A stretch of DNA of 42,255 nucleotides from positions 1-42,255 of the forward strand of contig JADGOM010000013.1 of assembly GCA_017882925.1 (NCBI GenBank), given 5' to 3'. Made by a program: the position numbers and the translations under genes. This document shows positions 27,944 to 42,255 of the stretch, piece after piece (position 1 is the first letter of the stretch; every line of letters starts with the position of its first letter). This DNA comes from Acidimicrobiia bacterium (GTDB lineage: Bacteria > Actinomycetota > Acidimicrobiia > IMCC26256 > Chersky-534). The notes under the pieces were generated by a model. That model saw nothing but the letters and a program-made list of their open reading frames with translations, made no database searches and had not been told where the DNA came from.

Positions 27944-27977
27944 TCGCAATGCGCCGCGCGCAATCGGAGGTGGGCTC

Positions 27978-28331: not shown

Positions 28332-28387
28332 CCGCCTGACGCCTGACCGCCGGACCGTCCCGCTTCCCGGACCGGGGGGTTTCCCGC

Positions 28388-28993: not shown

Positions 28994-29025
28994 GGGCCCA
29001 GTCTCGGCCTGGTGGAGCACCCGCC

Positions 29026-29045
29026 TTAGGGGCAAAGGTCCCATT
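29026..29045 (-). promoter_or_regulatory. DosR-box-like motif copy A (ttAGGGgcaAAGGTCCCatt), upstream of the GNAT gene
   Basis: Read directly. Lies 33-52 nt upstream of ATG 28993 and shares the core with five other copies. Confidence 0.55.
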
Positions 29046-29087
29046 CAGGCGGTAATAGGCCACGCGGCCCCTTGTCGGCAGTCCGCG

Positions 29088-30677
29088 CTACTCGACCGCC
29101 ACGTCCCGCCGGTTGAAGACCCAGCCCCCGGCCAGCACGCCGAGCGCGCCCACGCCGGCCAGGGCGGCCATCGTCGTGACGTCGGCCGGGACCGCCGGCA
29201 CCGGGGCGAGGTGGCTGAACGGGGAGATGTCGAGCACCCACTGCGGGGCCTGGGCCAGCCCGCCGATGAGCAGGATCGCGTAGCTCAGGGCGACGGCACC
29301 GAAGGCGACGAGGGTGGTCAGCCGGGGCGCGACGCCGAAGGCCAGGGTGGTGAGGCCGAGGAAGAGGACCGCGAGCGGGACGGTGCTCACCGCACCCTTC
29401 ACGCAGTCGACGAGCCCGATCGACTGCCCGCTCAGCCGCACGCCGGCCCACGCCGCGAAGCCACCCGCCACGGTGACCGCGACGAGCACGCCGATCGCGA
29501 CGGCGATGCGGGTGGCGAGCCAGGCGAGCCGCGCCGCCCCGCTCGTGAGGAGCGCGTCGACCCGCCCCGACTCCTCCTGGGTCCGCGCCGCGATGATCTG
29601 GGTGCCCGCGTAGACCGAGACGACGACCGCGATCACGCTGAACGACAGCCCCAGAAATCCCTTGATCGTGGCGACGGACGTGCCCGCGACGTGGGCGAGC
29701 GTCGAGCGGATGTTGTTCGAGTCGGCCACGTACTTCGCAATGTCGGCCGCGATGAAGCCCAGCACGAGCCCCACGACGCCGACCCCCGCGGTCCAGCCGA
29801 CCAGGCCGCCGGCGTTGAGCCGCCAGTCGAGCCCGCGCAGGGAGTGCAGCGGCCGCGGCGGACGGGTCGACCCGGCCGACTCGTAGAACCCGGCGCCCGC
29901 GTCACGCCGGGCGCGCAGCACCCCGGCGAGGCCGAACAGCAGCACGGAGGAAACGACGATCGCGAGCGCGGCGACCACGACGTCGCCGGTCCTCGGGTGC
30001 CCGTAGGCGTCGAGGTGCTCCACCCAGCCGAGCGGGGAGACCCACGCGAGCCACCGGCGATCGGAGCTCGCGTCGGCGATCGCCCGGATCAGGTACGAGG
30101 CCCCGAGGACGATCCCGGCCGAGCTCGCGGCCCGGCGCCGCGACGCCGCGAGCTGGCTGGTGACCGCGGCCAGCGCGCCGAAGAGCGCCGCGCCGGCCGC
30201 GAGCATCCCTCCGTAGGTGAGCGCGCCCGCCCACCCCAGCCCCCCGGCGAGGCACCCGACCGTGGCGCCCGCGCCCACCACGACCGCGGCGCCGACGAAC
30301 ACGAGGATCTGCCGGTCGAGCAGGTCGCGGGGACCGGGGACGCTCGCCATGAGGATCTCGTTGCGGCCCGACTCCTCGTCGCCCCGCATGATCCGCGTGA
30401 CCGCGAGGAGGGCCCAGAGCGCGACGACCGTCGCCACGGTCGAGCCGTAGCGCCAGGCCACGAACCCGCCGGGCGTGCCGATGTTGGTGCCGCGACCGTA
30501 GAGGGCGTCGAGCCCGCGGCTGGAGCCGAGCGTCGCGATGAGTCGGGCCCGATCGGCCGCCAACGGATACGCGGCGCGGTAGGCCTCGGCGCCGGCGAAC
30601 AGCACCACGGCGATCAGCGCCGCCCAGATCAGCGCGCCGCGTCGGAGCAGCCGCACCGCGAGCCGACGCGTGTTCAC
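29088..30677 (-). CDS. ABC-2 type exporter permease (COG3559-like, polyether/polyketide-antibiotic exporter family)
   Basis: 529 aa with about 12 hydrophobic segments. N-terminus LLRRGALIWAALIAV...YRAAYP. The GTG overlaps the ATPase stop (GTGA). Confidence 0.7.
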   Translation of the reverse strand: MNTRRLAVRLLRRGALIWAALIAVVLFAGAEAYRAAYPLAADRARLIATLGSSRGLDALYGRGTNIGTPGGFVAWRYGSTVATVVALWALLAVTRIMRGDEESGRNEILMASVPGPRDLLDRQILVFVGAAVVVGAGATVGCLAGGLGWAGALTYGGMLAAGAALFGALAAVTSQLAASRRRAASSAGIVLGASYLIRAIADASSDRRWLAWVSPLGWVEHLDAYGHPRTGDVVVAALAIVVSSVLLFGLAGVLRARRDAGAGFYESAGSTRPPRPLHSLRGLDWRLNAGGLVGWTAGVGVVGLVLGFIAADIAKYVADSNNIRSTLAHVAGTSVATIKGFLGLSFSVIAVVVSVYAGTQIIAARTQEESGRVDALLTSGAARLAWLATRIAVAIGVLVAVTVAGGFAAWAGVRLSGQSIGLVDCVKGAVSTVPLAVLFLGLTTLAFGVAPRLTTLVAFGAVALSYAILLIGGLAQAPQWVLDISPFSHLAPVPAVPADVTTMAALAGVGALGVLAGGWVFNRRDVAVE

Positions 30678-31624
30678 GACGCGCCGGTCTCCTTCGGCGC
30701 GTCGTCGCGGTAGAACGCGAGGAACAGCTCCTCGAGCGACGGCTCACGGATGTCGATCGAGTGCACCGACTCCCCCGAGAGCGCGTGCAGCAGCGGGGTC
30801 GGCTCGCCCCGCAGTCGGAAGGTGGCGTCGAGGCCGTCGACCGCGAGCTGCTCGACACCCGGCACCGTGCCGAGGTCGGCCACGGGGATCCGCTTGAACG
30901 ACACGTGGACGTCGCGGGTGTTGATCGCCCGGAGGTCCTCGAGCGTCCCCACGTCGACGAGCCGGCCCGACCGGAGGATCGCCACCCGGTCGCAGAGGGC
31001 CTCGACCTCCGACAGGATGTGCGAGGAGATGAAGACGGTCTGCCCCCTCCGGCGCGCGTCCTCGACGCAGTCGCGGAACACCACCTCCATCAACGGGTCG
31101 AGCCCGGTGGTGGGCTCGTCGAGCACGAGCAGGTCGGGATCCATCATGTACGCGGCGATCAGGGCGATCTTCTGGCGATTGCCCTTCGAGTACTCGCGGC
31201 CCCGCTTCGACGGGTCGAACTCGAACCGCTCCGACAGCTCGTCCCGGCGCTTCGCGTCGTAGCCACCCCGCAGCGAGCCGAGCAGGTCGAGCATCTCGGC
31301 GCCGCGCAGCGTGGGCCACGCGTTGAACTCCCCCGGCACGTGCGCGATGTGCGCGAGCGCGCCGCGCCGATCCGTCGCGACGTCGCAGCCGAAGATGCGC
31401 GCGCGGCCCCGGGTCGGGCGCGCGAGCCCGAGCAGCATGCGGATCGCCGTCGTCTTCCCGGCCCCGTTGGGCCCGAGGAAGCCGTAGACATCGCCCGGCG
31501 CGACCGTGATCGACAGGTCGTCGAGCGCCGTGAAGTCACCGAACCGCTTGGTGAGGCCCTCGGTGACGATCGCCGGCGGAGCTCCGGACGCACCAGGGCT
31601 CGCAGCTGACGGGGCGGACGGCAC
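30674..31624 (-). CDS. ABC transporter ATP-binding protein (DrrA/ABC-2 subfamily)
   Basis: Walker A GPNGAGKTT and Walker B LLVLDEPTTGLDP. Has a YSKGNRQK signature variant. Lies 9 nt downstream of the tandem USP gene. Confidence 0.85.
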   Translation of the reverse strand: MPSAPSAASPGASGAPPAIVTEGLTKRFGDFTALDDLSITVAPGDVYGFLGPNGAGKTTAIRMLLGLARPTRGRARIFGCDVATDRRGALAHIAHVPGEFNAWPTLRGAEMLDLLGSLRGGYDAKRRDELSERFEFDPSKRGREYSKGNRQKIALIAAYMMDPDLLVLDEPTTGLDPLMEVVFRDCVEDARRRGQTVFISSHILSEVEALCDRVAILRSGRLVDVGTLEDLRAINTRDVHVSFKRIPVADLGTVPGVEQLAVDGLDATFRLRGEPTPLLHALSGESVHSIDIREPSLEELFLAFYRDDAPKETGAS

Positions 31625-31633
31625 GAGGCGAGG

Positions 31634-32440
31634 CTAGGCCCCGGTTCGCCGGACCGTGAGCACCGGGCAGGGCGCGTTGCCGAGCACGCCCATCGTGACG
31701 CTGCCGACGAAGACGCGCGCCGCTCCCTGCCGTCCGTGCGTCGCCATCACGAACATCGACACCGAGTGCTCCTCCGCGAAGTCGACCAACGCGCCCGGCG
31801 TGTAGTTGCTCCGGATCAACCACGTGCGGGTCTCGACGCCGGTGCCCGCGAGCCGGGCCACGACCGGGGCGAAGAGCTCACGCGGGTTCTCCGCGCTCTC
31901 GACGTCGAGCGGGTGCATCACGGTGGCGATCCAGAGCGGCGCGCCGGCCGCGCGTGCGAACCCGGCCGCGACGTCGACGAGCTCGTCCTCGCCGCTCGAG
32001 CCGTCGTGGCACATGACGACGCGCAGATCCGCCGGGAGCCACGGCGCGCAGCGCCGGCCGACGAGCAGCACCGGCGCGTCGGCGATCTGGACCACCTCTT
32101 CGGCCACGCTGCCGATCAACGCCCAGCGGAAGCCGCTCCGGCCGTGGGTGGTCATGCAGATCATCGAACCCGGGCGGGTGCGGACGAAGGAGTTGATCGC
32201 GACCGCGACGTCGCGCGCCCCCAGCACCACCGACTCCACCGGCACGCCCGAGAGCGTGGCGGCGACGCCCTGGAGGTACTCGAGGGCAGACTCGCGGGCC
32301 TCGAGCCAATCCGTCGTGAGGAGCACGACCTTGCCGCCGAAGCGCGCCGCGAGCGATCCCGCCACCGACACCGCGCGTTCGGCGAGCTTCGACCCGTCGA
32401 GCGGGACGACCAGCTCGGACGGGGTCTCGAAGGCGGTCAA
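31634..32440 (-). CDS. Tandem universal stress protein (two USP domains)
   Basis: Two repeats ending in MTTHGRSGFRWALIGSVAEEVV and MATHGRQGAARVFVGSVTMGVL. The start is tentatively TTG 32440, overlapping the upstream TGA. The rest of the 445-aa track ORF was rejected. Confidence 0.7.
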   Translation of the reverse strand: MTAFETPSELVVPLDGSKLAERAVSVAGSLAARFGGKVVLLTTDWLEARESALEYLQGVAATLSGVPVESVVLGARDVAVAINSFVRTRPGSMICMTTHGRSGFRWALIGSVAEEVVQIADAPVLLVGRRCAPWLPADLRVVMCHDGSSGEDELVDVAAGFARAAGAPLWIATVMHPLDVESAENPRELFAPVVARLAGTGVETRTWLIRSNYTPGALVDFAEEHSVSMFVMATHGRQGAARVFVGSVTMGVLGNAPCPVLTVRRTGA

Positions 32441-32907
32441 TGGACGACCACCACGGGGCAGGCGGCGTGGGCCACGACCTGCTGGCTGACCGAGCCGAGC
32501 AGCAGGCCCTTGAAGCCACCGAGGCCGCGCGAGGCCACGACCATCAGCTCCGCGTGCCCGCTCAGCTCGACGAGCACCTGCGCCGCCGGGCCGCACCGGA
32601 CGTCGGCCAACCAGGGGAACTCCGCCGCGTCGAGCCCGGCCTTCTCGACCGCCGCGTGCAGCACCGCGGTCGCGTTGCGGTGGAAGTCGTGGCTGTTCCA
32701 CGGATCGACGTCGAGCGGGAGGATCGCGAGCGCGGGCGGGTACGTCCAACAGGTCACCATGTGCAGCTCGATCCCCCGGAGGGCGGCTTCCCCCGCGGCC
32801 CACCGGAGCGCGCGCACCGAGTGCTCCGAGCCGTCGATGCCGACGACGATCTTGCGCACCTCGGCCGCCTCGACGTCGGCGACGCCGACCTCGGAAGTCT
32901 CGGTCAC
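32437..32907 (-). CDS. Universal stress protein (single USP domain)
   Basis: IVVGIDGSEHSVRALRWA and VVASRGLGGFKGLLLGSVSQQVVAHAACPVVVV (G-2x-G-9x-GS ATP motif). The GTG overlaps the CBS gene stop (GTGA). Confidence 0.85.
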   Translation of the reverse strand: MTETSEVGVADVEAAEVRKIVVGIDGSEHSVRALRWAAGEAALRGIELHMVTCWTYPPALAILPLDVDPWNSHDFHRNATAVLHAAVEKAGLDAAEFPWLADVRCGPAAQVLVELSGHAELMVVASRGLGGFKGLLLGSVSQQVVAHAACPVVVVH

Positions 32908-33344
32908 GGTTGGGGCTCCAGTTCCTGGGTTGCGGGGCGGCCCGCCGCGACGGCGACCTCACCGGAGACACAACCGCCTCCGTCGACGGCCGTCAAGACC
33001 TCCGCCAGCGACACGGTCCCGATCGGGTCACCCGCGGCGTCCACGACGATGAGCTGCGTGGCCTGCGAACGGAGCATCGCCGCGAGCGCGTCGAAGGCCG
33101 TCGTGGAGGCCACGACCGTCTCGCAGTCGGACGACACCGCGACCATCGCCGACGTGAGCGGCGACCGCCCGAGCGCCGTCGCGGCCACGAGATCGCGTTC
33201 GGTGAGGATCGCGGCACCCGAACCGATGACCACCGCCGTGGCCCCCGTCCGCACCATCGACTGCGCGGCCTCGAGCAGCCGCGTGTCGCGCGGGAGCGCC
33301 ACCACCCGTGCGAGCTCCATGTCCATCACCTGCATCATCTGCAT
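32904..33344 (-). CDS. CBS-domain pair protein (Rv2626c/Hrp1-like architecture)
   Basis: 146 aa with two CBS-like repeats (ILTERDLV, PIGTVSLAEVL). GGAGG lies about 9 nt upstream of ATG 33344. Confidence 0.7.
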   Translation of the reverse strand: MQMMQVMDMELARVVALPRDTRLLEAAQSMVRTGATAVVIGSGAAILTERDLVAATALGRSPLTSAMVAVSSDCETVVASTTAFDALAAMLRSQATQLIVVDAAGDPIGTVSLAEVLTAVDGGGCVSGEVAVAAGRPATQELEPQP

Positions 33345-33399
33345 GACCGGCCCCCTCCCCTCGCCATGGCAACAGCTTGGGCAACGCCGCCCGCGGCCG

Positions 33400-33419
33400 T
33401 CAGGGCCAAAGGTCCCGAG
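33400..33419 (-). promoter_or_regulatory. DosR-box-like motif copy B (tcAGGGccaAAGGTCCCgag), upstream of the CBS-USP-USP-ABC operon
   Basis: Read directly; 56-75 nt upstream of ATG 33344. Confidence 0.6.
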
Positions 33420-33461
33420 CCTTCAGGAAGCCGACACCCGGGAACCGGCTCACCCGTGGCG

Positions 33462-34370
33462 TCAGGTGCGCGGGGCGATCGTGGTGCCCGCGGTGCCTTC
33501 GAGCAGCGCGAGCGCGTCGCCGAGCGCACCGATCCCCGCGGTGCCACCCGAATCGCGGGCGAACCGGCACGCGGCCGCCACCTTGGGTCCCATCGACCCG
33601 GCGGCGAACCCGATCCGCTCCATCGAGTCGGGGTCGGAGGTCCGGATCAGGTGCGCGTCGGCGCGGCCCCAGTCCGCGACGACGCCCTCCACGTCGGTGA
33701 GGAGCAGGAGGCGGTCGGCGCCGAGCCGCGTCGCGAGCAGGGCCGACGTCGCGTCCTTGTCGACCACGGCCTCCACCCCCCGGTAGCCACCTGCCTCGTC
33801 GAGCGTGACCGGCACTCCCCCGCCGCCGGCGCAGACGACCACGATCCCGCGGTCGACGAGGAGCTCGATGGTGTGGAGCTCGACGATCGCCGCGGGCGCG
33901 GGCGACGGCACGACCCGGCGCCAGCGGTCGCCGTCCGGCGCGATGGACCAACCGTGGTCGGCGACGACGCGCAACGCGGCCTCTTGGTCGTAGACGGGCC
34001 CCACCGGCTTCGACGGCTTCGCGAACGCCGGATCCGCCGGATCGACCACCACCTGGGTGAGCAGAGTGGCGACGTCGCGGTCGCGCAGCTCGTTGCCGAT
34101 GGCCTGCTCGAGCAGGTAGCCGATCATGCCTTCGCTCTCGGCGCCGAGGACGTCGAGCGGATACGGCTCGGCGCCGCGGTATGCGGCCGCCTGCAGCGCG
34201 AGCAGGCCGACCTGCGGCCCGTTGCCGTGGGTCACGACCACCCGGTGGTCGCGCGCGAGCTCGGCGATCGCCGCGGCCGCGGTCTTCACGTTGCGGCGCT
34301 GCACCTCGGCGTCGAGCGGCTCACCCCGCCGGAGCAGCGCGTTCCCACCCAGGGCGACGACGATCAGCAT
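33462..34370 (-). CDS. arcC: Carbamate kinase
   Basis: IVVALGGNAL, VVTHGNGPQVG and VVCAGGGGVPV motifs. Overlaps the OTC gene stop by 7 nt. Confidence 0.9.
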   Translation of the reverse strand: MLIVVALGGNALLRRGEPLDAEVQRRNVKTAAAAIAELARDHRVVVTHGNGPQVGLLALQAAAYRGAEPYPLDVLGAESEGMIGYLLEQAIGNELRDRDVATLLTQVVVDPADPAFAKPSKPVGPVYDQEAALRVVADHGWSIAPDGDRWRRVVPSPAPAAIVELHTIELLVDRGIVVVCAGGGGVPVTLDEAGGYRGVEAVVDKDATSALLATRLGADRLLLLTDVEGVVADWGRADAHLIRTSDPDSMERIGFAAGSMGPKVAAACRFARDSGGTAGIGALGDALALLEGTAGTTIAPRT

Positions 34371-35305
34371 CCCGACCCCGTGAGCCGGCCCCGCACCAGC
34401 CCGTGGAGCACGGCCTGCGCGGTCGGCAGCCGGTTCTCCGCCTGGCGGAGCACGATCGACCGCGGCCCGTCGATGACCTCGGGCGCGACCTCGTCGGCCC
34501 GGCGGGCGGGAAGGCAGTGCATGAACCGGGCGTCGTGCGAGGCCTCGGCGAACAGCTCACCGGTCACGCGGTAGGGGGCGAGGGCGAACTCCCGCTCCGG
34601 CTTCTCCGACCCGGGATCGCCCATCGACATCCACGCGTCGGTGTAGACGAAGTCGGCCGCCTTCACCGCGGCGTGGGGATCGTTGACCACCTCGACCCGC
34701 GCGCCCGTCACCGCGGCGATGCGCCGCGCCCGCTCGACCACCTCGTCGGACGGCGCGTACCCGGGGGGCGTCGCGATGGCGATGTCCATGCCCACCAGCG
34801 CCGCGCCTTCGAGGAGGCTGTGGGCGACGTTGTTGCCGTCGCCGAGGTAGGCGAGCTTCAGCCCGGCGAAATCACCGTAGAGCTCGCGGATCGTGAGCAG
34901 GTCGGCGATGCTCTGGCAGGGGTGGTGCCGGTCGGTCAACGCGTTGATCACCGGGATCGTCGCGTGCTCGGCGAACGTCCGCACCTGCTCGTCGTCGGGC
35001 GTGCGGATCACGACCGCGGCGGCGTACTCCGACACGACGCGGGCGGTGTCGGCGGTCGTCTCCGGGTGCCCCATCTGCAGATCGCCCGGCCCGACGACGA
35101 CCGGCGTGCCGCCCATGCGGGCCACCGCGGTCTCGAACGACAGCCGGGTGCGGGTCGACGGCGTGGTCAGGTAGAGGACCACGGTCTCGCCCCGCAGCAG
35201 CTTGTGGTCGATCCGGTGATCGAGCTTCAGCTCCTCGGCGAATGCGAGCAGGTACTCGAGATCGTCGGGGGACAGATCCGCGGTGCGGAGCAGATCCTTC
35301 AACAT
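34364..35305 (-). CDS. argF: Ornithine carbamoyltransferase
   Basis: STRTR, HPCQ, DAWMSMG and HCLPA motifs. GGAGGA lies 5 nt upstream of ATG 35305. A catabolic role (arcB) is suggested only by coupling to arcC. Confidence 0.88.
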   Translation of the reverse strand: MLKDLLRTADLSPDDLEYLLAFAEELKLDHRIDHKLLRGETVVLYLTTPSTRTRLSFETAVARMGGTPVVVGPGDLQMGHPETTADTARVVSEYAAAVVIRTPDDEQVRTFAEHATIPVINALTDRHHPCQSIADLLTIRELYGDFAGLKLAYLGDGNNVAHSLLEGAALVGMDIAIATPPGYAPSDEVVERARRIAAVTGARVEVVNDPHAAVKAADFVYTDAWMSMGDPGSEKPEREFALAPYRVTGELFAEASHDARFMHCLPARRADEVAPEVIDGPRSIVLRQAENRLPTAQAVLHGLVRGRLTGSGC

Positions 35306-35361
35306 GGTGTCCTCCGGTGTTCGCGGCGGACTCCAGAGTGCGACGGCGGGTCCGGGTGTCG

Positions 35362-35381
35362 TCAGGGTCCAAGGTCCCGAA
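35362..35381 (-). promoter_or_regulatory. DosR-box-like motif copy C (tcAGGGtccAAGGTCCCgaa), in the divergent region between the OTC gene and the haem-binding-domain gene
   Basis: Read directly. Lies 57-76 nt upstream of ATG 35305 and 56-75 nt upstream of ATG 35437. It is the most palindromic copy (GGGtCC-AA-GGTCCC) and matches 14 of 20 positions of TTSGGGACTWWAGTCCCSAA. Confidence 0.6.
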
Positions 35382-35436
35382 CCGGCGGGGCCGCGCGGCA
35401 CTATCGCCGTTGCGGCGGGATCGGTAGACCGGAGCC

Positions 35437-35889
35437 ATGAGAAAGCGCCTGCTCATCGTCCTCGCCGCGCTGGTGGCCGCGTTCCTGCTGATACAGCTCG
35501 TCCCCTACCGGGTGACGAACCCGCCCGTCGGCGCGGAGCCGAAGTGGGACAGCCCGCGCACGCGCCAACTCGCGGTCGCGGCGTGCTTCGACTGCCACAG
35601 CAACCAGACCCACACCACCTGGTGGGAAGACGTCGCGCCGCTCTCGTGGTGGATCACCAACCACGTGCGCGACGGCCGCGCCGCACTCAACTTCTCGGAG
35701 TGGGGCTCCTCGCAGGGTGAGGGCGCGGGGGACGCGGCCGAGACGGTGTCGAACGGGTCGATGCCACCGAACTACTACACGTGGCTGGGCATGCACGGCC
35801 CGGCGAGCCTCACGGCCGCGGAGCGCAAGGAGCTCGCCACCGGGCTGCAGAAGACCCTCGGCGGATCGGGGGGCTCCGGAGGCGGCTGA
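35437..35889 (+). CDS. Haem-binding-domain (PF14376-like) protein with an N-terminal signal/anchor
   Basis: MRKRLLIVLAALVAAFLLI signal, CFDCHS (CxxCH) and LNFSEW...GSMPP pattern. Has a Gly/Ser tail. Confidence 0.7.
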   Translation: MRKRLLIVLAALVAAFLLIQLVPYRVTNPPVGAEPKWDSPRTRQLAVAACFDCHSNQTHTTWWEDVAPLSWWITNHVRDGRAALNFSEWGSSQGEGAGDAAETVSNGSMPPNYYTWLGMHGPASLTAAERKELATGLQKTLGGSGGSGGG

Positions 35890-35902
35890 ACCCGCGTCGG
35901 CC

Positions 35903-36319
35903 TCAGGCGCCGCCCGAGGGGCCGAAGCGCTGTCCGGAGACGAGCGTCGGGGCGACCTGGATGAGCTGCGAACGGGCGTCGGCCACCCACGTGGGGTGCA
36001 GGCGCTCGCGGGCCGTCGCGCTCCGGTCCGGGTCGGTGACCGCGTCGGCGAACCCGCGCACGAGCACGCTGTAGCCCATCTCGTCGACCGGGTCGAAGGT
36101 GTCGACCTGCAACGCGACGATGGTGCCCATCGACCCCGACGCCAGGGCGGTGCCGGCCAGCGTGGGGAAGACCACGAAGTCGTCGACGACCGCGAGGAAC
36201 ACGGGGAAGATCGCCGGGAGCGCTTCGATGCTCAGCCCCACCCGCCCGATCGCCGCCGAACGCAGGATGTCGAAGCACTCCGACCTGGACAGCTCGTGGA
36301 GGTGGTGGGTGGTCATCAC
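35903..36319 (-). CDS. Pyridoxamine 5'-phosphate oxidase-fold (PF12900-like) flavin/deazaflavin-binding protein
   Basis: LSRSECFDILRSAAIGRVGL...FPVFLAVVDDFVVF...YSVLVRGFADAVTD pattern. The start is GTG 36319 or the adjacent ATG 36316. Confidence 0.7.
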   Translation of the reverse strand: MMTTHHLHELSRSECFDILRSAAIGRVGLSIEALPAIFPVFLAVVDDFVVFPTLAGTALASGSMGTIVALQVDTFDPVDEMGYSVLVRGFADAVTDPDRSATARERLHPTWVADARSQLIQVAPTLVSGQRFGPSGGA

Positions 36320-36351
36320 CGACCCAGGGTGATGGGCCGCCGCCCGGCCGA

Positions 36352-36371
36352 CCAGGGTCGAAGGACCCGAC
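36352..36371 (-). promoter_or_regulatory. DosR-box-like motif copy F (ccAGGGtcgAAGGaCCCgac), upstream of the PNPOx-fold gene and overlapping the dosR stop
   Basis: Read directly. Lies 33-52 nt upstream of the start at 36319, with one mismatch in the strong half-site. Confidence 0.45.
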
Positions 36372-37039
36372 TACGCGTCGGACCGGGGCTTTGCGCCCCG
36401 GGACACATTGGCCCCGAAGACGGCGGCCTGGGTCCGCCGCTCCATGCCGAGCTTGGCCAGGAGGTTGGAGACGTAGTTCTTCACCGTCTTCTCGGCGAGG
36501 AACATCCGCTCCGCGATCTGGCGGTTGGTGAGCCCCTCGGCGATCAGGGCGAGGATCTTGCGCTCCTGCCCGGTGAGCCGGGCCAGGCGCTCGTCCTCCT
36601 TCGGCGGTTGGCGGACCCGGTCCATGACCCGGCCCACCAGCGTGGGATCGAGCAGCGACTGGCCCGCAGCCACCCGGCGGACCGCGTCGACGATGTCGGT
36701 GCCCCGCACCTGCTTCAGGAGGTAGCCCGAGGCTCCGGCCACGACCGCCTCGAACAGGGCCTCGTCGTCGGAGAACGACGTGAGCATGAGGCACTTGATC
36801 TCGGGGTGCGCGGAACGGACGTCGCGGCAGACCTCGACCCCGGATCCGTCGGGGAGCTGCACGTCGAGGATGGCGACGTGGGGCCGGGTGGGCGGGATGC
36901 GGGCGATCGCCTCCGCCGCCGTGCCCGCCTCGCCGACGACCTCGATCCCGTCGGTTCCCTCGAGCAGCGTGCGCACGCCTTCCCGCACGATCTCGTGATC
37001 GTCGAGCAGGAACACCCGGATCGGCGTGTGGTCATCCAT
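36371..37039 (-). CDS. dosR: NarL/LuxR-family response regulator, DosR/DevR-like
   Basis: Receiver domain RVFLLDDHEIV...VAILDVQLPDGSG, then LTGQERKILALIAEGLTNRQIAERMFLAEKTVKNYVSNLLAKLG HTH. The ATG overlaps the kinase stop by 8 nt. Confidence 0.85.
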   Translation of the reverse strand: MDDHTPIRVFLLDDHEIVREGVRTLLEGTDGIEVVGEAGTAAEAIARIPPTRPHVAILDVQLPDGSGVEVCRDVRSAHPEIKCLMLTSFSDDEALFEAVVAGASGYLLKQVRGTDIVDAVRRVAAGQSLLDPTLVGRVMDRVRQPPKEDERLARLTGQERKILALIAEGLTNRQIAERMFLAEKTVKNYVSNLLAKLGMERRTQAAVFGANVSRGAKPRSDA

Positions 37040-38810
37040 TGCGTCGGTTCCCGTTCCCGTCGAGCGATGTCGGCACCCGCCAGACGATCGTCGTGCCCGC
37101 GCCCGGCTCACTGGTGATCTCGAACGTACCGCTCAACGCCGCGGCCCGGCTCTCGAGGTTGGCCACGCCGCTGCGGCGGTCGTGCCCGGCCTGGAACCCC
37201 ACGCCGTCGTCGGTCACCCGGAGGACGATCTCGTCGGCGACCTGCACCGACACCTCCACGCGGCTCGCTCGCGCGTGCCGGCTCGCGTTCGAAACGGCTT
37301 CCCGGGTGCACGCGACCAGGTGCCGGGCGACGTCGGCGTCGATGGCGGTGTCGACCGGGCCGTCGAAGACCACGTGGGCCTCGAACCCCGCCCGCTCGGC
37401 GTACTCGTTCACCAGGTCGAGGATCTCGACCCGCACGCCCGACTTCGGCGGGGTGGCCAGGCTGAAGATGCTGGTGCGGATCTCCTTGATGGTGGCGTCG
37501 ACCTCGTCGATCGCCTTCGAGATCCGGGGCGCCTGCGAGCCTGCGGCGTCCGCGATCGTCGACTGGAGCAGCATGCCGACGGCGAAGAGGCGCTGGATGA
37601 CGGTGTCGTGCAGATTTCGGCCGATGCGCTCCCGGTCTTCCAGCGTGCGCATGCGGTCGTTGTCGCGCCGGCTGCGGGCGAGCTCGATCGCGAGCGCGGC
37701 CTGCCGGGCGAAGCTCGTGATCACGTCGACGTCCATGTCGGCGAAGGGGCGCCCGCCCTTCGTGTTGTCGACCGACAGCACGCCGAGCACCCGGTCGGCG
37801 CCGCGGAGCGGCACGTAGACGACGGCCCCCGGCTGCAGGGCGGCGATGGCGGGGAGGAAGACCCGGGGATCCTGGGTCGCGTCCTCGACGATGTGCGTGA
37901 CGCCTTCCAGGTAGGCCTGGCCCGCCGCGGTCCCCTCGACCGGCACCGAGATGCCGACGATCTCCTCGGTGTGCTCGCCGTGGGCCGCGACGATCTCGAG
38001 GAGCCGGCCGTCGTCACTGGCGAGCATGACCCGCACCCCGTCGGCGCGGGCGATCGCACCGGCGCGCACCGCGATGTCCTGCAGCACCTCCTCGACCGGT
38101 TCGCCCGCCAGGAGGTTGCGGTTGATGTCGGCGATGGCGTCGATCCACTGCTCGCGCCGGCGCTGCTCGTCGTAGAGCGTCGCGTTCTCGATCGCGACTC
38201 CGGCGGCGATGGCGAGCGCGGAGACCAGCTCGAGGTCGGTGGAGGTGAACTCGTCGGCGCTCTGCTTCTCGCAGAGGTAGAGGTTGCCGAACACCGCCCC
38301 GCGGCTGCGCACCGGCACCCCGAGGAACGACCGCATGGGCGGGTGGTTCGCCGGGAAGCCCACCGATTCCCCGTGCTCGGAGAGGTCGCGCAGCATCAGC
38401 GGCCGGGGGTCGCGCACGAGGAGACCGAGGATGCCGTGACCGCGCGGGAGGGGCCCGATGCGCTCCCGGGTCTCGTCGTCGATGCCGACGGTGATGAACT
38501 CGGAGAGCTGCCGGTCGGCGCCGATCACGCCGAGCGCGCCGTACCGGGCGTCGACCAGGCGGCACGCGCCCTCGACGATGGCCCGAAGAACCTCGGGGAG
38601 GCTGAGGCCGGTGCCGACGGCGACGACTGCGTCGAGCAGCACCTGGAACCGGCCGACGGCGCCGAGCGCCGCGTTGGTCCGCACCCCGAGCTCGGCGACG
38701 AGCTCCTCGAGCTGGAGATGGGCCGCGTCGAGTCGGGGTGGGGCCGAGGCATCGCCAAGCTGGTCTCTCGGGTCCACGTATTCCCTCCGCAGACAAACCT
38801 CGGGCGCCAC
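37032..38810 (-). CDS. dosS: GAF-GAF-HisKA_3-HATPase sensor histidine kinase, DosS/DosT (DevS)-like haem sensor
   Basis: GAF-A segment GFPANHPPMRSFLGVPVRSRGAVFGNLYLCEK aligns with the mycobacterial DosS/DosT haem pocket, with the proximal His in HPPM conserved. H-box RIGRNLHDTVIQRLFAVG. C-terminal ATPase domain. Confidence 0.85.
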   Translation of the reverse strand: MAPEVCLRREYVDPRDQLGDASAPPRLDAAHLQLEELVAELGVRTNAALGAVGRFQVLLDAVVAVGTGLSLPEVLRAIVEGACRLVDARYGALGVIGADRQLSEFITVGIDDETRERIGPLPRGHGILGLLVRDPRPLMLRDLSEHGESVGFPANHPPMRSFLGVPVRSRGAVFGNLYLCEKQSADEFTSTDLELVSALAIAAGVAIENATLYDEQRRREQWIDAIADINRNLLAGEPVEEVLQDIAVRAGAIARADGVRVMLASDDGRLLEIVAAHGEHTEEIVGISVPVEGTAAGQAYLEGVTHIVEDATQDPRVFLPAIAALQPGAVVYVPLRGADRVLGVLSVDNTKGGRPFADMDVDVITSFARQAALAIELARSRRDNDRMRTLEDRERIGRNLHDTVIQRLFAVGMLLQSTIADAAGSQAPRISKAIDEVDATIKEIRTSIFSLATPPKSGVRVEILDLVNEYAERAGFEAHVVFDGPVDTAIDADVARHLVACTREAVSNASRHARASRVEVSVQVADEIVLRVTDDGVGFQAGHDRRSGVANLESRAAALSGTFEITSEPGAGTTIVWRVPTSLDGNGNRRNG

Positions 38811-38919
38811 GCCTTGACGCCGACGTGCTCCGATCCACGATCTGGCTGCAACTTAGCCGCCGAAGCGTTCCAACGGCGCCAAACCCGACACTCGCCCCGT
38901 CCCGTCGCAGCCCGGGTCG

Positions 38920-38939
38920 GTCGTGACCTTCGGCCCTGG
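38920..38939 (+). promoter_or_regulatory. DosR-box-like motif copy E (gtcGtGACCTTcggCCCTgg), in the dosS / Rv2004c-like divergent region
   Basis: Read directly. Lies 67-86 nt upstream of ATG 39006 and 110-129 nt upstream of the dosS start, with one mismatch (GTGAC for GGGAC). Confidence 0.5.
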
Positions 38940-38965
38940 GAGGCGGCGGATCCTTCCGGGATCCT

Positions 38966-39004
38966 CAGGAGGTCCCGACAGGAGGTCCCGACAGGAGGGC
39001 CCGC
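38966..39004 (+). repeat. Three tandem copies of a 13-bp unit caggaggtcccga (third copy caggagggcccgc), ending 1 nt before the ATG
   Basis: Units at 38966..38978, 38979..38991 and 38992..39004. Each contains AGGAGG, and only the last is at SD distance. Preceded by the palindrome ggatcc-ttccg-ggatcc at 38948..38964. Confidence 0.8.
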
Positions 39005-39005
39005 A

Positions 39006-40556
39006 ATGCCCGATCGCCCCGTCCCCCGATCCCCGCCCACGGTCCACGAGACCCACGTCTCGACGGTCTTCCTGGTCGGCGACCACGCGGCCAAGCTCAA
39101 GAAGCCGGTCCGCTTCCCGTTCCTCGACCTCTCGACCCGGGAGGCCCGCGAGCGGATGTGCCACCGCGAGGTGGAGCTCAACCGCCGGCTCAGCCCCGAC
39201 GTGTACCTGGGCGTGTTCGACATCGTCGGGCCCGACGGCGCGCCGCGCGACCACCTCGTGGTGATGCGGCGGATGCCCGACGGCCGCCGGCTGAGCTACC
39301 TGGTGCGGGCGGGCAAGGTGCCACCGGGTGCGCTGCAGGAGCTCGCCCACGTCATCGCGTCGTTCCACAGCCGGGCCGAGTCGTCCGACACGATCGACGC
39401 CGCCGCGACCCGCGACGCGATCGCCGGGCGCTGGGAGACCGGGTTCACCGAGATGGCGCCGCTGATCGTCACGCCCGGGGCGAAGGCGCTCGAGGACGAG
39501 ATCGAGGCCCGCGCCCGGCGCTACCTCGCGGGGCGGGAGGCGATCTTCGCGGCGCGCATCGACGAGGGCCGAATCCGCGACGGGCACGGCGACCTCCTGG
39601 CCGACGACGTGTTCATGCTCGACGACGGACCGCGCATCCTCGACTGCCTGGAGTTCGACGACGAGCTCCGGTACGGCGACACGCTGGCCGACATCGCGTT
39701 CCTGGCCATGGACCTCGAGCGCCTCGGCGCGCCCGGGCTCGCCCGGGAGCTCCTCACGTTCCACCGGGGGTACGGCGACGATTCGTACCCCGAAACGCTC
39801 GCCCACCAGTACATCGCCCTCCGCGCGCACATCCGGGCCAAGGTCGAAGGACTGCGGGCCGATCAGGGCGCGCCGGCCGCGGGGGAGACCGCGCGCGATC
39901 TCCTCGAGCTCGCGGCCGCCCACCTCCGGCGGACGCGGGTGGCACTCGTGCTCGTCGGCGGCGCCCCCGGAACCGGGAAGTCGACCCTCGCCGCCGCGCT
40001 CGCCACCGAGCTCGACATGGTGACGCTGCGCACCGACGAGGTGCGCAAGGACCTGGCGGGGATGGGGCACCTCGAGCGGGCCGGCGCCGGGCTCGACCAC
40101 GGCATCTACAGCGAGGACCACACGCACGCGACCTACGCGGAGATCCTCGACCGCGCCCGAGCGTTGCTGGAGGTGGGCGAATCGGTGGTGCTCGACGCGT
40201 CGTGGGCCGACGAGGAGTTCCGCGTCGCCGCCCGCGCACTCGCGGAGGAGACGGTGTCGGATCTGGTCGAGCTCCGGTGCGCGGTCGCAGAGGACATCGC
40301 GGCCGAGCGCATCGAGGCCCGCGCCCGGCGCGGCGACGACCCGTCGGACGTCACGCCCGAGATCGGCACCCAGATCGGCCGCCGGTTCGACCCGTGGCCG
40401 CAGGCGGTCACGATCCCGACCGACGGCTCCCGCTCCGATGCGATGGAGGTCGCGCTCGCCGCGTTCCGCGACGCGGATCCGATCGCGCGGAGCGCGACCT
40501 GCCGCGCGAACGGGACCTTCAGCCCTACTGGCCCGGCCGCGACGTCCGTACGTTGA
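39006..40556 (+). CDS. Bifunctional aminoglycoside-phosphotransferase-like kinase / P-loop ATP-binding protein (Rv2004c-like architecture)
   Basis: N-terminal APH/protein-kinase-like fold (HGDLLADDVF catalytic loop, DCLEFDDELRYGD) plus a C-terminal Walker A LVGGAPGTGKST domain. Only the last 516 aa of the 1176-aa track ORF are credible. Confidence 0.8.
   Translation: MPDRPVPRSPPTVHETHVSTVFLVGDHAAKLKKPVRFPFLDLSTREARERMCHREVELNRRLSPDVYLGVFDIVGPDGAPRDHLVVMRRMPDGRRLSYLVRAGKVPPGALQELAHVIASFHSRAESSDTIDAAATRDAIAGRWETGFTEMAPLIVTPGAKALEDEIEARARRYLAGREAIFAARIDEGRIRDGHGDLLADDVFMLDDGPRILDCLEFDDELRYGDTLADIAFLAMDLERLGAPGLARELLTFHRGYGDDSYPETLAHQYIALRAHIRAKVEGLRADQGAPAAGETARDLLELAAAHLRRTRVALVLVGGAPGTGKSTLAAALATELDMVTLRTDEVRKDLAGMGHLERAGAGLDHGIYSEDHTHATYAEILDRARALLEVGESVVLDASWADEEFRVAARALAEETVSDLVELRCAVAEDIAAERIEARARRGDDPSDVTPEIGTQIGRRFDPWPQAVTIPTDGSRSDAMEVALAAFRDADPIARSATCRANGTFSPTGPAATSVR
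40509..40528 (+). promoter_or_regulatory. DosR-box-like motif copy D (aacGGGACCTTcagCCCTac), upstream of the flavodoxin-like gene and inside the 3' end of the preceding CDS
   Basis: Read directly; 63-82 nt upstream of ATG 40591. Confidence 0.5.
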
Positions 40557-40590
40557 GCTGACCAGTCGAAGTGCGTCCGGAGGTCGGGAC

Positions 40591-41166: not shown

Positions 41167-41227
41167 CGGTCCCGCCGTACCGGCGGCCCGGTCATCGGGC
41201 CCCGGCACCGGCGGTGATACTGGGCCC

Positions 41228-42255
41228 GTGACCGCGACCGCCCCCGAGTCGACGTGGTCCGGGACCAGCGCGGCCGAGGTGGCCGCGCTCGGGCCCGGCG
41301 ACGTCCTGGCGCGGCTCGGCACGACGGTCGACGGGCTCACGAGCCACGAGGCCCTCCGCCGGGCCGGGCAGGTGGGATCCAACACCGTGCGCACGCAGCG
41401 CACCCGGTGGTGGGTGGTGCTCGGCCGCCAGCTGCACAGCGCGCTGTTCCTCCTGCTGGTCGTCACCGCGGCGCTGTCGTTCTTCGTGGGCAGCAAGTCC
41501 GACGCGGTGATCATCGGCGTCATCCTGGCGATCTCGATCGGGCTCGGCTTCGTCAACGAGTTCCGGGCCGAGCTCGCGGCCGAGGCGCTGCACACGCAGA
41601 TCCACCACGACGTCGTCGTGCGCCGCGACGGCCGCGCGACCTCGCTCGACGCCCGGGAGCTGGTGCCGGGCGACGTGGTCCGGTTGAGCATGGGCGAGCT
41701 GGTGCCGGCCGACGTGCGCGTCCTCACCACCGACTCGCTCGAGTGCGACGAGTCGATCCTCACCGGCGAGTCGGTGGCCGCGGTGAAGTCGCCGGCGCCC
41801 GTCGCCGCGGGGACGGGCCTGGCCGACACGTCGTCATGCGCCTACATGGGCACCATCGTGCAGTCGGGATCCGCGCTGGCGGTGGTCGTCGCGACCGGCA
41901 CGCGCACCGAGTTCGGCCGTATCGCGGTGGGCCTCACCGACCGCCGCCACGAGACCGAGTTCCAGAAGGGCCTGCGGGAGTTCTCGGTGCTCCTGGTCCG
42001 CGTCGCCGGTGTGCTGACCACGTCGATCCTGGTCATCAACCTCCTCCTCCACCGCAACTTCCTGGAGTCGGTGCTCTTCTCGCTCGCCATCGCGGTCGGC
42101 ATCACGCCCCAGCTGCTCCCGGCCGTCGTCACCACCAGCCTCGCGGCGGGGTCACGGCGCCTGGCCCACAAGAAGGTCCTCGTCAAGCGGCTGGTGAGCA
42201 TCGAGGACCTCGGCAACATCGAGCTGCTGCTCACCGACAAGACCGGCACGCTCAC
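41228..42255 (+). CDS. Cation-transporting P-type ATPase, 5' part only (runs off the window); MgtA-like TM4 motif
   Basis: Hand translation from GTG 41228: ...GLTSHEALRRAGQVGSN..., LTGES, GITPQLLPAVVT, and DKTGTL at the window edge. Not present in the ORF track. The GTG is the first in-frame start after the flavodoxin stop. Confidence 0.8.
   Translation, partial: MTATAPESTWSGTSAAEVAALGPGDVLARLGTTVDGLTSHEALRRAGQVGSNTVRTQRTRWWVVLGRQLHSALFLLLVVTAALSFFVGSKSDAVIIGVILAISIGLGFVNEFRAELAAEALHTQIHHDVVVRRDGRATSLDARELVPGDVVRLSMGELVPADVRVLTTDSLECDESILTGESVAAVKSPAPVAAGTGLADTSSCAYMGTIVQSGSALAVVVATGTRTEFGRIAVGLTDRRHETEFQKGLREFSVLLVRVAGVLTTSILVINLLLHRNFLESVLFSLAIAVGITPQLLPAVVTTSLAAGSRRLAHKKVLVKRLVSIEDLGNIELLLTDKTGTL

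What the first reader, a model, noticed from the sequence alone, without database searches (positions are those of the whole stretch)
29026..40528. Six copies of a 20-bp DosR-box-like motif, all at fixed distance and orientation upstream of operon starts around dosRS
I read the same motif six times in about 11.5 kb. On the + strand the copies are:
- A, 29026: ttAGGGgcaAAGGTCCCatt
- B, 33400: tcAGGGccaAAGGTCCCgag
- C, 35362: tcAGGGtccAAGGTCCCgaa
- F, 36352: ccAGGGtcgAAGGaCCCgac
- D, 40509 (reverse complement): gtAGGGctgAAGGTCCCgtt
- E, 38920 (reverse complement): ccAGGGccgAAGGTCaCgac

Positions A3 G4 G5 G6, A10 A11 G12 G13, C15 and C17 are invariant. Read in the direction of the downstream gene, the core is GGGACCTT-N3-CCCT. 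That is GGGAC-N6-CCC, the same half-site spacing as the mycobacterial DosR box TTSGGGACTWWAGTCCCSAA. One half-site is strong and one is degenerate.

Every copy sits 33-86 nt upstream of a start codon: GNAT, CBS-USP operon, OTC-CK (and the divergent haem-domain gene), PNPOx-fold gene, Rv2004c-like gene, and flavodoxin-like gene. Every copy has the same orientation relative to that gene. A DosS/DosR pair is encoded in the middle. I found no other copy elsewhere in the window on visual scanning. Together this looks like a compact, self-contained regulon with a lineage-specific variant of the DosR operator.
Basis: partly seen in the sequence, partly recalled or inferred. Interest (0 to 1): 0.8.

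Follow-up and report, generated by a model that had tools for sequence, protein, structure and literature searches.

The report
DosR-type hypoxia operator boxes, six promoters
Six copies of a 15-19 bp operator sit at a fixed position in six promoters around a haem-sensor kinase and DosR-like regulator pair, which makes this an ordinary hypoxia/dormancy (DosR/DevR/OsdR) regulon of the kind known from Mycobacterium and Streptomyces, here in a probable Acidimicrobiia genome.

Summary
The window holds exactly six sites (GGGACCTT-N3-CCCT in gene direction), all between 29.0 and 40.5 kb. They score 19-26 bits on a PWM built from related loci, against a chance ceiling of about 10-14.

Each site lies 22-23 nt upstream of a -10-like nAnnnT hexamer. 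That puts the box centre at about -42.5, the position of the M. tuberculosis tgs1 primary Dev box. Two of the target genes are leaderless.

The adjacent regulator is 56% identical to M. tuberculosis DevR and has the same DNA-recognition helix. The kinase has a DosS/DosT-type haem GAF-A domain.

The same asymmetric box, with the same -10 spacing and orientation, recurs near DosR homologues in 80 actinobacterial loci: 105 hits against about 6 expected. It is kept at orthologous promoters (PNPOx, carbamate kinase/OTC, USP, Rv2004c-like, flavodoxin).

Identical sequences (GGGACCTTCGGCCC) are already listed as S. coelicolor OsdR sites, so the motif is not a lineage-specific variant.

Verdict: a new member of a known kind. 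The modest additions are the phylum-wide directional asymmetry of the box, apparently single-box promoters, and OTC/carbamate kinase as a target. Binding and induction are untested.

The parts
29026..29045 (-). Box A (core 29028-29042, GGGACCTTTGCCCCT in gene direction). Its -10-like hexamer GAGACT is at 29000-29005. The leaderless ATG at 28993 starts the GNAT acetyltransferase gene (28388-28993).
   Evidence: (22.2 bits); Pfam
33400..33419 (-). Box B (core 33402-33416, GGGACCTTTGGCCCT). Its -10-like hexamer CAAGCT is at 33374-33379. It lies upstream of the ATG at 33344 of a - strand gene run: CBS (32904-33344), USP (32437-32907), tandem-USP (31634-about 32500), ABC ATPase (30674-31624) and an unknown 529-aa protein (29088-30677).
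   Evidence: (25.9 bits); Pfam. That the run is one operon is inferred from overlapping or abutting ORFs.
35362..35381 (-). Box C (core 35364-35378, GGGACCTTGGACCCT). Its -10-like hexamer CACTCT is at 35335-35340, with a 23-nt spacer. It lies upstream of the ATG at 35305 of ornithine carbamoyltransferase (34364-35305) and carbamate kinase (33462-34370).
   Evidence: (24.0 bits); NCBIfam, both enzymes above the curated cut-offs
36352..36371 (-). Box F (core 36354-36368, GGGTCCTTCGACCCT), immediately after the regulator's stop codon. Its -10-like hexamer CACCCT is at 36326-36331. The leaderless GTG at 36319 starts the PNPOx-fold gene (35903-36319).
   Evidence: (19.4 bits). The same arrangement is conserved in L001, L002, L004, L009 and L010.
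38921..38940 (+). Box E (core 38923-38937, GTGACCTTCGGCCCT). Its -10-like hexamer GATCCT is at 38960-38965. It lies upstream of the ATG at 39006 of the Rv2004c-like AAA_33 protein (39006-40556).
   Evidence: (24.0 bits). The same GTGACC variant precedes Rv2004c-like genes in L011, L014 and L020.
40509..40528 (+). Box D (core 40512-40526, GGGACCTTCAGCCCT), inside the 3' end of the Rv2004c-like gene. Its -10-like hexamer TACGTT at 40549-40554 overlaps that gene's stop codon. It lies upstream of the ATG at 40591 of the flavodoxin-like gene (40591-41166).
   Evidence: (21.5 bits). There is a site upstream of the flavodoxin homologue in L002.
36371..37039 (-). DosR/DevR/OsdR-type response regulator (receiver plus GerE/LuxR HTH), 222 aa.
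   Evidence: Pfam. The best PDB match is M. tuberculosis DevR 3c3w, E 1.4e-75, with 55.7% identity over 212 ungapped residues. The recognition-helix motif FLAEKTVKNYVS is identical.
37032..38810 (-). DosS/DosT-type sensor kinase (GAF-GAF-HisKA_3-HATPase_c), 592 aa, overlapping the regulator's start by 8 nt.
   Evidence: Pfam. The GAF-A domain matches DosT 2vzw at E 2e-50 and DevS 2w3d at E 9e-44, with 58.9% identity to DosT. The HPPM histidine and the LYL tyrosine align.
41228..42255 (+). P-type cation ATPase (CtpF-like) downstream of the flavodoxin gene; it runs off the window. It may be co-transcribed from box D or use its own -10-like GATACT (41216-41221). Membership of the regulon is uncertain.
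   Evidence: Pfam (E1-E2_ATPase, Cation_ATPase_N)

Best explanation
The six motifs are operator boxes for the DosR/DevR/OsdR-family response regulator encoded at 36371-37039. Each box is part of an activator-dependent promoter.

Proposed mechanism (inferred):
1. The haem-GAF kinase (37032-38810) senses low O2, NO or CO and phosphorylates the regulator.
2. A regulator dimer binds the imperfect dyad GGGAC-CTTN-GNCCC, which is centred about 42.5 bp upstream of the transcription start and overlaps the place where a -35 element would be.
3. The bound dimer recruits RNA polymerase holoenzyme to a promoter that has only a -10 hexamer (nAnnnT, 22-23 nt downstream of the box).

The predicted result is induction of six transcription units: GNAT; CBS-USP-USP-ABC; OTC-carbamate kinase; PNPOx-fold; Rv2004c-like; and flavodoxin (possibly with the CtpF-like ATPase). 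Two of these (GNAT, PNPOx) are leaderless.

Shown here: the sites, their number, their orientation, the -10 spacing, their conservation, and the identities of the regulator and kinase. Inferred: binding, activation rather than repression, the inducing signal, and the transcription start sites.
For: 1. Number of sites. There are six and only six, far above chance.

2. Promoter position in the window. All six have nAnnnT at a spacer of 22 or 23 nt. The background frequency is 0.018 per position, giving roughly 2e-9 for six of six. In A and F the start codon begins 7 nt after the hexamer, as expected for leaderless mRNAs.

3. The same grammar in relatives. In 80 loci around homologues of the regulator (1.34 Mb), GGGACCTTNNNCCCT with at most 1 mismatch occurs 105 times, against 4-7 in shuffles. 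Of 104 such sites with enough flanking sequence to analyse, 75 have the -10 at spacer 22 or 23 on one side; on the mirrored side only 2-3 sites have it at either spacer. The unconstrained position 9 is G in 89% of sites, the dyad partner of C4.

4. Unbiased orientation test. A search with the symmetric core, oriented only by the -10, gives the same asymmetric logo.

5. Position relative to the start. The box centre at about -42.5 matches the M. tuberculosis tgs1 primary box at -42.5 (PMC3177182).

6. The regulator. It is 56% identical to DevR and has the identical EKTVKN recognition segment. DevR is by far its best PDB match (1e-75 against 1e-43 for VraR).

7. The kinase. Its GAF-A domain is 59% identical to DosT, with the haem His and Tyr aligned.

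8. Published sites. S. coelicolor OsdR sites include CGGGACCTTCGGCCCT and AGGGACCTTCGGCCCC, and OsdR~P bound the SCO5978/5979 region in EMSA (PMC5069765).

9. Conserved targets. Orthologous promoters keep the box while the spacers diverge.

10. No alternative promoter. The region holds no canonical two-hexamer sigma-70 promoter, consistent with dependence on an activator.

11. Gene content. Targets overlap the known DosR/OsdR regulons (USP, CBS, Rv2004c-like, PNPOx-fold). A ctpF-like ATPase lies next to the cluster.
Against: No experiment exists: binding, induction and transcription starts are all predicted.

The M. tuberculosis hallmark of at least two tandem boxes in helical phase is not seen in the window. 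Only one candidate reaches 7 of 8 core matches near the expected position, at -23 from box C, and the 6/8 matches elsewhere are at chance level for this G+C content.

Two sites deviate in the dyad: E has GTGAC, and D has A instead of G at position 9.

No box is oriented towards the dosS-dosR operon, so the positive autoregulation typical of M. tuberculosis and S. coelicolor is not evident.

A box overlapping the -35 region could in principle repress rather than activate.
Confidence: 0.85

Rival explanations
1. The sites are real DosR-family operators, but the regulator acts on them as a repressor. A box over the -35 region would occlude RNA polymerase, and the genes would be de-repressed when the regulator is inactive.
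For: The box overlaps the -35 position, a geometry also used by repressors. No expression data exist.
Against: The promoters have no recognisable -35 hexamer of their own, so they should be weak without an activator. The homologous regulators DevR and OsdR activate from the same position, with the tgs1 box at -42.5 (PMC3177182; PMC5069765). The strict helical register of box and -10 across about 75 promoters is typical of class-II activation.
Confidence: 0.07
2. The motif is recognised by another factor. It could be the -35 element of an alternative sigma factor, or the site of another NarL/LuxR-family or Crp-type regulator, and only happens to sit next to dosRS.
For: The box occupies -49 to -35 and its 3' end (CCCTG) could be read as part of a -35 element. 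Actinobacterial genomes encode many NarL-family paralogues.
Against: The dyad symmetry GGGNC-N4-GNCCC, with G9 at 89% even where unconstrained, points to a dimeric HTH protein, not a sigma factor. The co-localised regulator has exactly the DevR recognition helix. The motif co-occurs with homologues of this regulator in 80 loci from many lineages. OsdR binds probes that carry this sequence (PMC5069765).
Confidence: 0.05
3. The motif is a dispersed REP-like or mobile repeat, unrelated to transcription.
For: There are six near-identical short copies in 11.5 kb. One copy (D) lies inside a coding region.
Against: Similarity does not extend beyond about 19 nt. No copy occurs in the other 30 kb of the window. 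Every copy is in register with a -10 element and a gene start. Copies are kept at orthologous promoters in distant genomes while the flanks diverge. Nothing matches in Rfam.
Confidence: 0.02

Closest known systems
Mycobacterium tuberculosis DevR (DosR) regulon and its Dev boxes (consensus TTSGGGACTWWAGTCCCSAA; PMC3177182)
   Same: The half-site spacing is the same (GGGAC-N4-GTCCC versus GGGAC-CTTN-GNCCC), and the critical G and C positions are conserved. The box is centred at about -42.5. The regulator is 56% identical with an identical recognition helix. The partner is a haem GAF-A kinase. Targets overlap: USPs, a CBS protein (like hrp1/Rv2626c), an Rv2004c-like protein and a neighbouring ctpF-like ATPase.
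   Different: The promoter-proximal half-site is GGCCC-T (OsdR-like) rather than GTCCC. The centre is CTT(C/T/G), not TWWA. No convincing second (secondary) box is found, whereas M. tuberculosis promoters have at least two in tandem. The gene order is kinase then regulator, with no box facing the operon. OTC/carbamate kinase, GNAT and flavodoxin are additional targets. The host is probably Acidimicrobiia, not Mycobacteriales.
Streptomyces coelicolor OsdR/OsdK (SCO0204/SCO0203) regulon, consensus AGGGCCGATCGGCCCT, clustered in SCO0167-SCO0219 (PMC5069765)
   Same: Boxes cluster around the two-component genes. The proximal half AGGGCCG is identical to the OsdR half-site. The exact sequence GGGACCTTCGGCCC is listed for SCO5979/5978, SCO0167c and narG2. 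Targets include USPs and a pyridoxamine-5'-phosphate-oxidase-family gene (SCO0214).
   Different: The OsdR consensus was described as a symmetric palindrome derived from sites upstream of osdR. Here the box is consistently asymmetric and directional. Here no box faces the regulator operon. No nitrate reductase or developmental genes are present in this window.

Membership tests
DosR/DevR/OsdR operator (Dev box) | Imperfect dyad with GGG and C in each half at fixed spacing (GGGNC-N4-GNCCC) | tested here: met
   Four of the six sites match fully. E has GTGAC, and D has A at position 9. In relatives the unconstrained position 9 is G in 89% of sites.
DosR/DevR/OsdR operator (Dev box) | A cognate NarL-family regulator with the DevR DNA-contact residues (Lys179, Lys182, Asn183 in EKTVKN) | tested here: met
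   The alignment to 3c3w shows FLAEKTVKNYVS identical and 55.7% identity overall. The contact residues themselves are named from established knowledge of the DosR-DNA structure.
DosR/DevR/OsdR operator (Dev box) | A partner kinase with a haem-binding GAF-A domain (DosS/DosT type) | tested here: met
   GAF-GAF-HisKA_3-HATPase architecture. The GAF-A domain is 59% identical to DosT 2vzw, with the HPPM His and LYL Tyr aligned. Haem binding itself was not tested.
DosR/DevR/OsdR operator (Dev box) | The promoter-proximal box is centred near -42.5, overlapping the -35 region | tested here: met
   This holds by prediction only. The -10-like hexamer lies 22-23 nt after the box in 6 of 6 window sites and in 75 of 104 related sites, and leaderless starts lie 6-7 nt after the hexamer. 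TSS were not mapped.
DosR/DevR/OsdR operator (Dev box) | At least two tandem boxes in helical phase (primary plus secondary), the M. tuberculosis hallmark | tested here: inconclusive
   The window has no phased second box above the chance level, apart from a 7/8 match at -23 from C. The logo from relatives shows a weak signal at -21/-22. Secondary boxes in M. tuberculosis are very poorly conserved, so sequence alone cannot exclude them.
DosR/DevR/OsdR operator (Dev box) | Target genes overlap the dormancy/hypoxia regulon | tested here: met
   USP, tandem-USP, CBS, Rv2004c-like and PNPOx-fold genes are targets, and a CtpF-like ATPase is adjacent. Comparison is with the M. tuberculosis and S. 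coelicolor lists in PMC3177182 and PMC5069765.
DosR/DevR/OsdR operator (Dev box) | The phosphorylated regulator binds the sites, and the genes are induced by hypoxia, NO or CO | not testable with these tools
   Needs EMSA or footprinting, and RNA-seq.
REP-like / dispersed repeat | Many copies independent of promoters, with similarity extending into the flanks | tested here: not met
   There are only six copies, all in register with a -10 and a gene start. Flanks are unrelated.
Alternative-sigma -35 element | An asymmetric -35 motif without dyad symmetry, paired with a sigma-specific -10 | tested here: not met
   The motif is a dyad. The -10 is the generic nAnnnT of housekeeping-type actinobacterial promoters.

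The most novel reading that the evidence does not exclude
The DosR/OsdR box may not be a symmetric palindrome but a directional, composite promoter element conserved across Actinomycetota.

Its proposed grammar is:
- a promoter-distal 'mycobacterial-type' half (tC-GGGAC);
- a TT centre;
- a promoter-proximal 'Streptomyces-type' half fused to a vestigial -35 (GGCCC-TG);
- exactly 22-23 nt before the -10;
- often a leaderless start 6-7 nt after the -10.

If so, the two protomers of the dimer play different roles, with the proximal one contacting sigma region 4. A single box might then suffice outside mycobacteria, and DosR regulons and their transcription starts could be predicted from sequence alone in uncultured actinobacteria such as Acidimicrobiia.
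Probability: 0.35. Interest if true: 0.45.

Novelty: new member of a known kind. Interest (0 to 1): 0.3.

Why it matters
It extends the DosR/DevR/OsdR hypoxia-dormancy regulon, with operator, promoter grammar and core targets intact, to what is probably an uncultured Acidimicrobiia lineage. No paper in the searched library mentions DosR for that group.

It gives a sequence-only rule for finding DosR-controlled promoters in actinobacterial MAGs: box, then 22-23 nt, then nAnnnT, often followed by a leaderless start.

It suggests that citrulline/carbamoyl-phosphate fermentation (OTC plus carbamate kinase) is part of the low-oxygen programme in these organisms.

None of this changes how the system is understood. 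It is a tidy example, not a surprise.

Tried and rejected
**Further copies in the window.** I searched with 2 mismatches and with a PWM. None was found.

**Secondary Dev boxes.** I looked for boxes in helical phase upstream of each site. Nothing exceeded the chance level for this G+C content, apart from one 7/8 match at -23 from box C.

**Bidirectional use of boxes C and E.**
- For the haem-domain gene, the mirrored -10 candidate CACTAT (35399-35404) is 3 nt out of register.
- For dosS-dosR there is no hexamer in register. The only good candidate, TAAGTT (38850-38855, - strand), lies about 66 nt from the box.
- I therefore do not count either unit as shown.

**Gene-start orientation test in relatives.** The test was crude and is inflated by shadow ORFs in high-GC DNA: 31 sites had a gene start only in the motif direction, 9 only in the reverse direction, and 59 in both. 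I relied on the -10 register instead.

**Rfam.** No hits over the whole window.

**Canonical promoter and terminator scan.** No hits.

**Retrieving the source contig.** I tried four window proteins, hoping to extend beyond 42255. None is on record.

**NCBIfam.** It has no DevR/DosS-specific model that the regulator or kinase passes. The best matches (MadR, NarL) fall below their cut-offs, so family assignment rests on the PDB comparison.

**M. tuberculosis box sequences.** The supplementary tables of PMC3177182 are not held. I could not test whether M. tuberculosis boxes share the directional asymmetry.


Full report
**1. Observation**

AGGGNNNAAGGNCNC has six matches: 29028, 33402, 35364 and 36354 on the + strand, and 38923 and 40512 on the - strand. 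The expected number is 0.01. Allowing two mismatches to AGGGNNNAAGGTCCC adds nothing.

A 19-nt weight matrix built from related loci scores the six sites at 19.4-25.9 bits. The next best position in the 42 kb scores 10.5, within the range of shuffled sequence. The window therefore holds six sites and no more, all between 29.0 and 40.5 kb. The window has 70-75% G+C throughout.

**2. Genes**

The units, each preceded by a box, are:

| Box | Strand | Genes |
|---|---|---|
| A | - | GNAT (28388-28993) |
| B | - | CBS (32904-33344), USP, tandem-USP, ABC ATPase, unknown 529-aa protein |
| C | - | OTC (34364-35305), carbamate kinase (33462-34370) |
| F | - | PNPOx-fold protein (35903-36319) |
| E | + | Rv2004c-like AAA_33 protein (39006-40556) |
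| D | + | flavodoxin-like protein (40591-41166) |

- The kinase (37032-38810; GAF-GAF-HisKA_3-HATPase) and the regulator (36371-37039; receiver plus GerE) lie on the - strand and overlap by 8 nt.
- A haem-binding-domain gene (35437-35889, +) is divergent from OTC.
It starts at GTG 41228, resembles CtpF and runs off the window.
- The rest of the window is unrelated: molybdopterin oxidoreductase with FdhD, sugar metabolism, a branched-chain amino acid ABC transporter, amidohydrolases and an ArsR/phosphatase cluster.

**3. Promoter anatomy**

Read in the direction of the downstream gene, the sites are:
- A: GGGACCTTTGCCCCT
- B: GGGACCTTTGGCCCT
- C: GGGACCTTGGACCCT
- F: GGGTCCTTCGACCCT
- E: GTGACCTTCGGCCCT
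- D: GGGACCTTCAGCCCT

Each is followed, after 22 nt (23 nt in C), by a hexamer of the form nAnnnT: GAGACT, CAAGCT, CACTCT, CACCCT, GATCCT and TACGTT. That form occurs at 1.8% of window positions, so six of six at one of two spacings has a probability of about 2e-9.

In A and F the start codon begins 7 nt after the hexamer, the geometry of leaderless actinobacterial mRNAs. The other four units have 23-40-nt leaders with GGAGG-type ribosome-binding sites.

Taking the start as 7 nt after the hexamer, the dyad centre falls at -42.5. The fixed distance is thus to the promoter, not to the start codon, from which the cores lie 34-68 nt.

Box D and its -10 lie inside the last 45 nt of the Rv2004c-like coding sequence, and the hexamer overlaps that gene's stop codon.

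No canonical two-hexamer sigma-70 promoter exists anywhere in 28300-41300. This fits promoters that need an activator.

**4. The proteins**

- **Regulator.** Its best solved relative is M. tuberculosis DevR (3c3w, E 1.4e-75). The next best is VraR at 1e-43. Identity is 55.7% over 212 ungapped residues. The segment FLAEKTVKNYVS, which carries the DNA-contacting Lys179, Lys182 and Asn183 of DosR (established knowledge of the DosR-DNA structure), is identical. The acidic pocket and the VA(V/I)LDV phospho-acceptor segment also align.
- **Kinase.** Its first GAF domain matches the haem GAF-A of DosT (2vzw, E 2e-50; 58.9% identity) and DevS. The histidine of HPPM and the tyrosine of LYL align.

**5. 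Relatives**

A scan of one genome per species with the regulator returned 80 loci. The closest are Acidimicrobiia or unclassified actinobacterial MAGs, at 86% and 84% identity. The others are Nocardioides, Kitasatospora, Dactylosporangium, Streptosporangiaceae, Frankiales, Jatrophihabitans and more. The window's organism is therefore probably an Acidimicrobiia-class actinobacterium. That is an inference from this one protein.

- **Enrichment.** In these 1.34 Mb, GGGACCTTNNNCCCT with at most one mismatch occurs 105 times, against 4-7 in Markov shuffles.
- **Logo.** Unconstrained position 9 is G in 89% of sites (the dyad partner of C4). A is enriched at +38 and T at +42. An ATG-like signal appears around +49 to +51.
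- **Register and orientation.** Of the 104 sites with enough flanking sequence, 75 have the hexamer at spacer 22 (54 sites) or 23 (21 sites). On the mirrored side, only 2-3 sites have it at either spacer. Twenty-nine sites have a start codon 6-7 nt after the hexamer.
- **Unbiased test.** I took all 186 matches to the symmetric core GGGNC-N4-GNCCC and oriented them only by a one-sided -10. This yields 84 sites. Their logo is again asymmetric: distal tC-GGGAC, centre TT, proximal GGCCC followed by T (85%) and G (61%).

**6. Phylogenetic footprinting**

Homologues of the window's target genes keep a box immediately upstream in relatives:
- PNPOx directly after the regulator's stop: L001, L002, L004, L009, L010
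- carbamate kinase: L001, L006, L009
- OTC: L013
- flavodoxin: L002
- Rv2004c-like: L011, L020
- USP: L006, L011, L020, L013

An alignment of the regulator-stop/box/PNPOx region from six genomes shows three conserved islands: the box, the A and T of the hexamer, and the leaderless GTG/ATG. The spacer has diverged.

Weak variants are gene-specific and conserved. GTGACC precedes Rv2004c-like genes in the window, L011, L014 and L020. GGG(C/T)CC precedes PNPOx in the window, L001, L002 and L009.

**7. Comparison with what is known**

*M. tuberculosis.*
- Primary boxes sit next to poorly conserved secondary boxes in helical phase.
- At tgs1 the boxes are centred at -42.5 and -63.5 (PMC3177182).

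*S. coelicolor.*
- OsdR recognises AGGGCCGATCGGCCCT, binds M. tuberculosis Dev boxes, and has sites clustered around osdRK (PMC5069765).
- Its site table already contains CGGGACCTTCGGCCCT (SCO5979/5978) and AGGGACCTTCGGCCCC (SCO0167c, narG2).
- OsdR~P bound the SCO5978/5979 intergenic region in EMSA.

*This window.* Its box is a hybrid of the two published consensus halves. It has the same spacing and position as both and matches individual published OsdR sites exactly.

*Differences from M. tuberculosis.*
- There is no convincing secondary box. Relatives show only a weak signal at -21/-22.
- The gene order is kinase then regulator.
- No box faces the kinase-regulator operon. A separate -10-like TAAGTT lies at 38850-38855.

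**8. Mechanism and confidence**

The best-supported reading is class-II-type activation by the phosphorylated DosR-like dimer at six -35-less promoters, in response to the haem kinase's gas signal (confidence 0.85). Rival readings are repression from the same sites (0.07), recognition by another factor or sigma (0.05) and a REP-like repeat (0.02).

Control of the haem-domain gene and of dosS-dosR through the mirrored faces of boxes C and E is not supported. The only candidate hexamer, CACTAT at 35399-35404, is 3 nt out of register, and none exists for the kinase.

Whether the regulon is self-contained cannot be judged from 42 kb. The source contig was not retrievable.

**9. Novelty**

This is a new member of a known kind. 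The additions are:
- the taxon; no paper in the searched library pairs Acidimicrobiia with DosR;
- a directional promoter grammar conserved across Actinomycetota;
- apparently single-box promoters;
- OTC/carbamate kinase as a conserved target.

I rate interest at about 0.3.

Noticed in passing
window 38966-39003: A 13-bp tandem repeat, CAGGAGGTCCCGA x2.9 (96% matches, the top TRF score in the window), fills the leader of the Rv2004c-like gene between its predicted -10 and the ATG at 39006. Each unit carries an AGGAGG Shine-Dalgarno-like sequence and a GGTCCC half-site-like sequence. It is absent from the same leader in L006, L007, L008, L011, L014 and L020.
   Followed up: partly
window 41172-42255: A P-type cation ATPase (E1-E2_ATPase, Cation_ATPase_N), reminiscent of the M. 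tuberculosis DosR-regulon gene ctpF, follows the flavodoxin gene and is cut by the window end. It has its own -10-like GATACT (41216-41221) 6 nt before GTG 41228, so it looks leaderless, but no DosR box is in register. A short inverted repeat, CCGCCG-TAC-CGGCGG, lies at 41172-41186.
   Followed up: partly
window 33462-35305; L001, L006, L009, L013: Ornithine carbamoyltransferase and carbamate kinase (both above NCBIfam cut-offs) are under a DosR box here. CK or OTC homologues keep a box in four related loci. This suggests ATP generation from citrulline/carbamoyl phosphate as part of the hypoxia programme. No arginine deiminase gene is seen in the window.
   Followed up: partly
window 37032-38940: The gene order is kinase then regulator, with an 8-nt overlap; in M. 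tuberculosis and S. coelicolor the regulator comes first. The only nearby box (E) faces away from the operon, and L002 has the same layout. A -10-like TAAGTT at 38850-38855 (- strand) may be a DosR-independent promoter.
   Followed up: partly
window 40509-40556: The flavodoxin promoter (box D plus the -10) is embedded in the last 45 nt of the Rv2004c-like coding sequence. The -10 hexamer TACGTT overlaps that gene's TGA stop.
   Followed up: yes
L011 12239, L014, L020 10705; L001 1456, L002 10666, L009 1548: Weak-box variants are gene-specific and conserved across genomes. GTGACCTTCGCCTCT precedes Rv2004c-like genes, and GGGCCCTTCGGCCCT precedes PNPOx genes. This hints at tuned affinities for individual promoters.
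   Followed up: partly
window 36383-36401: An inverted repeat, CCGGGGC-GCAAA-GCCCCGG, lies inside the last codons of the regulator gene, 14 nt upstream of box F. No T-run follows, and its function is unknown.
   Followed up: no
window 26031-28357: An ArsR-family regulator (27924-28331), a glyoxalase-fold protein (27406-27963) and an LMW phosphatase with an N-terminal phosphatase-like domain (26031-26678) form a small cluster next to the regulon. An 8-bp tandem repeat, GCCTGACC x4, lies at 28326-28357, overlapping the last 6 nt of the ArsR gene (ends 28331) and running into the spacer before the GNAT gene (28388).
   Followed up: no
window 29088-30677: A 529-aa ORF with strong coding signal (GC3 0.95), downstream of the ABC ATPase in the box-B gene run, has no Pfam or NCBIfam match. 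It may be the membrane partner of the ATPase.
   Followed up: no
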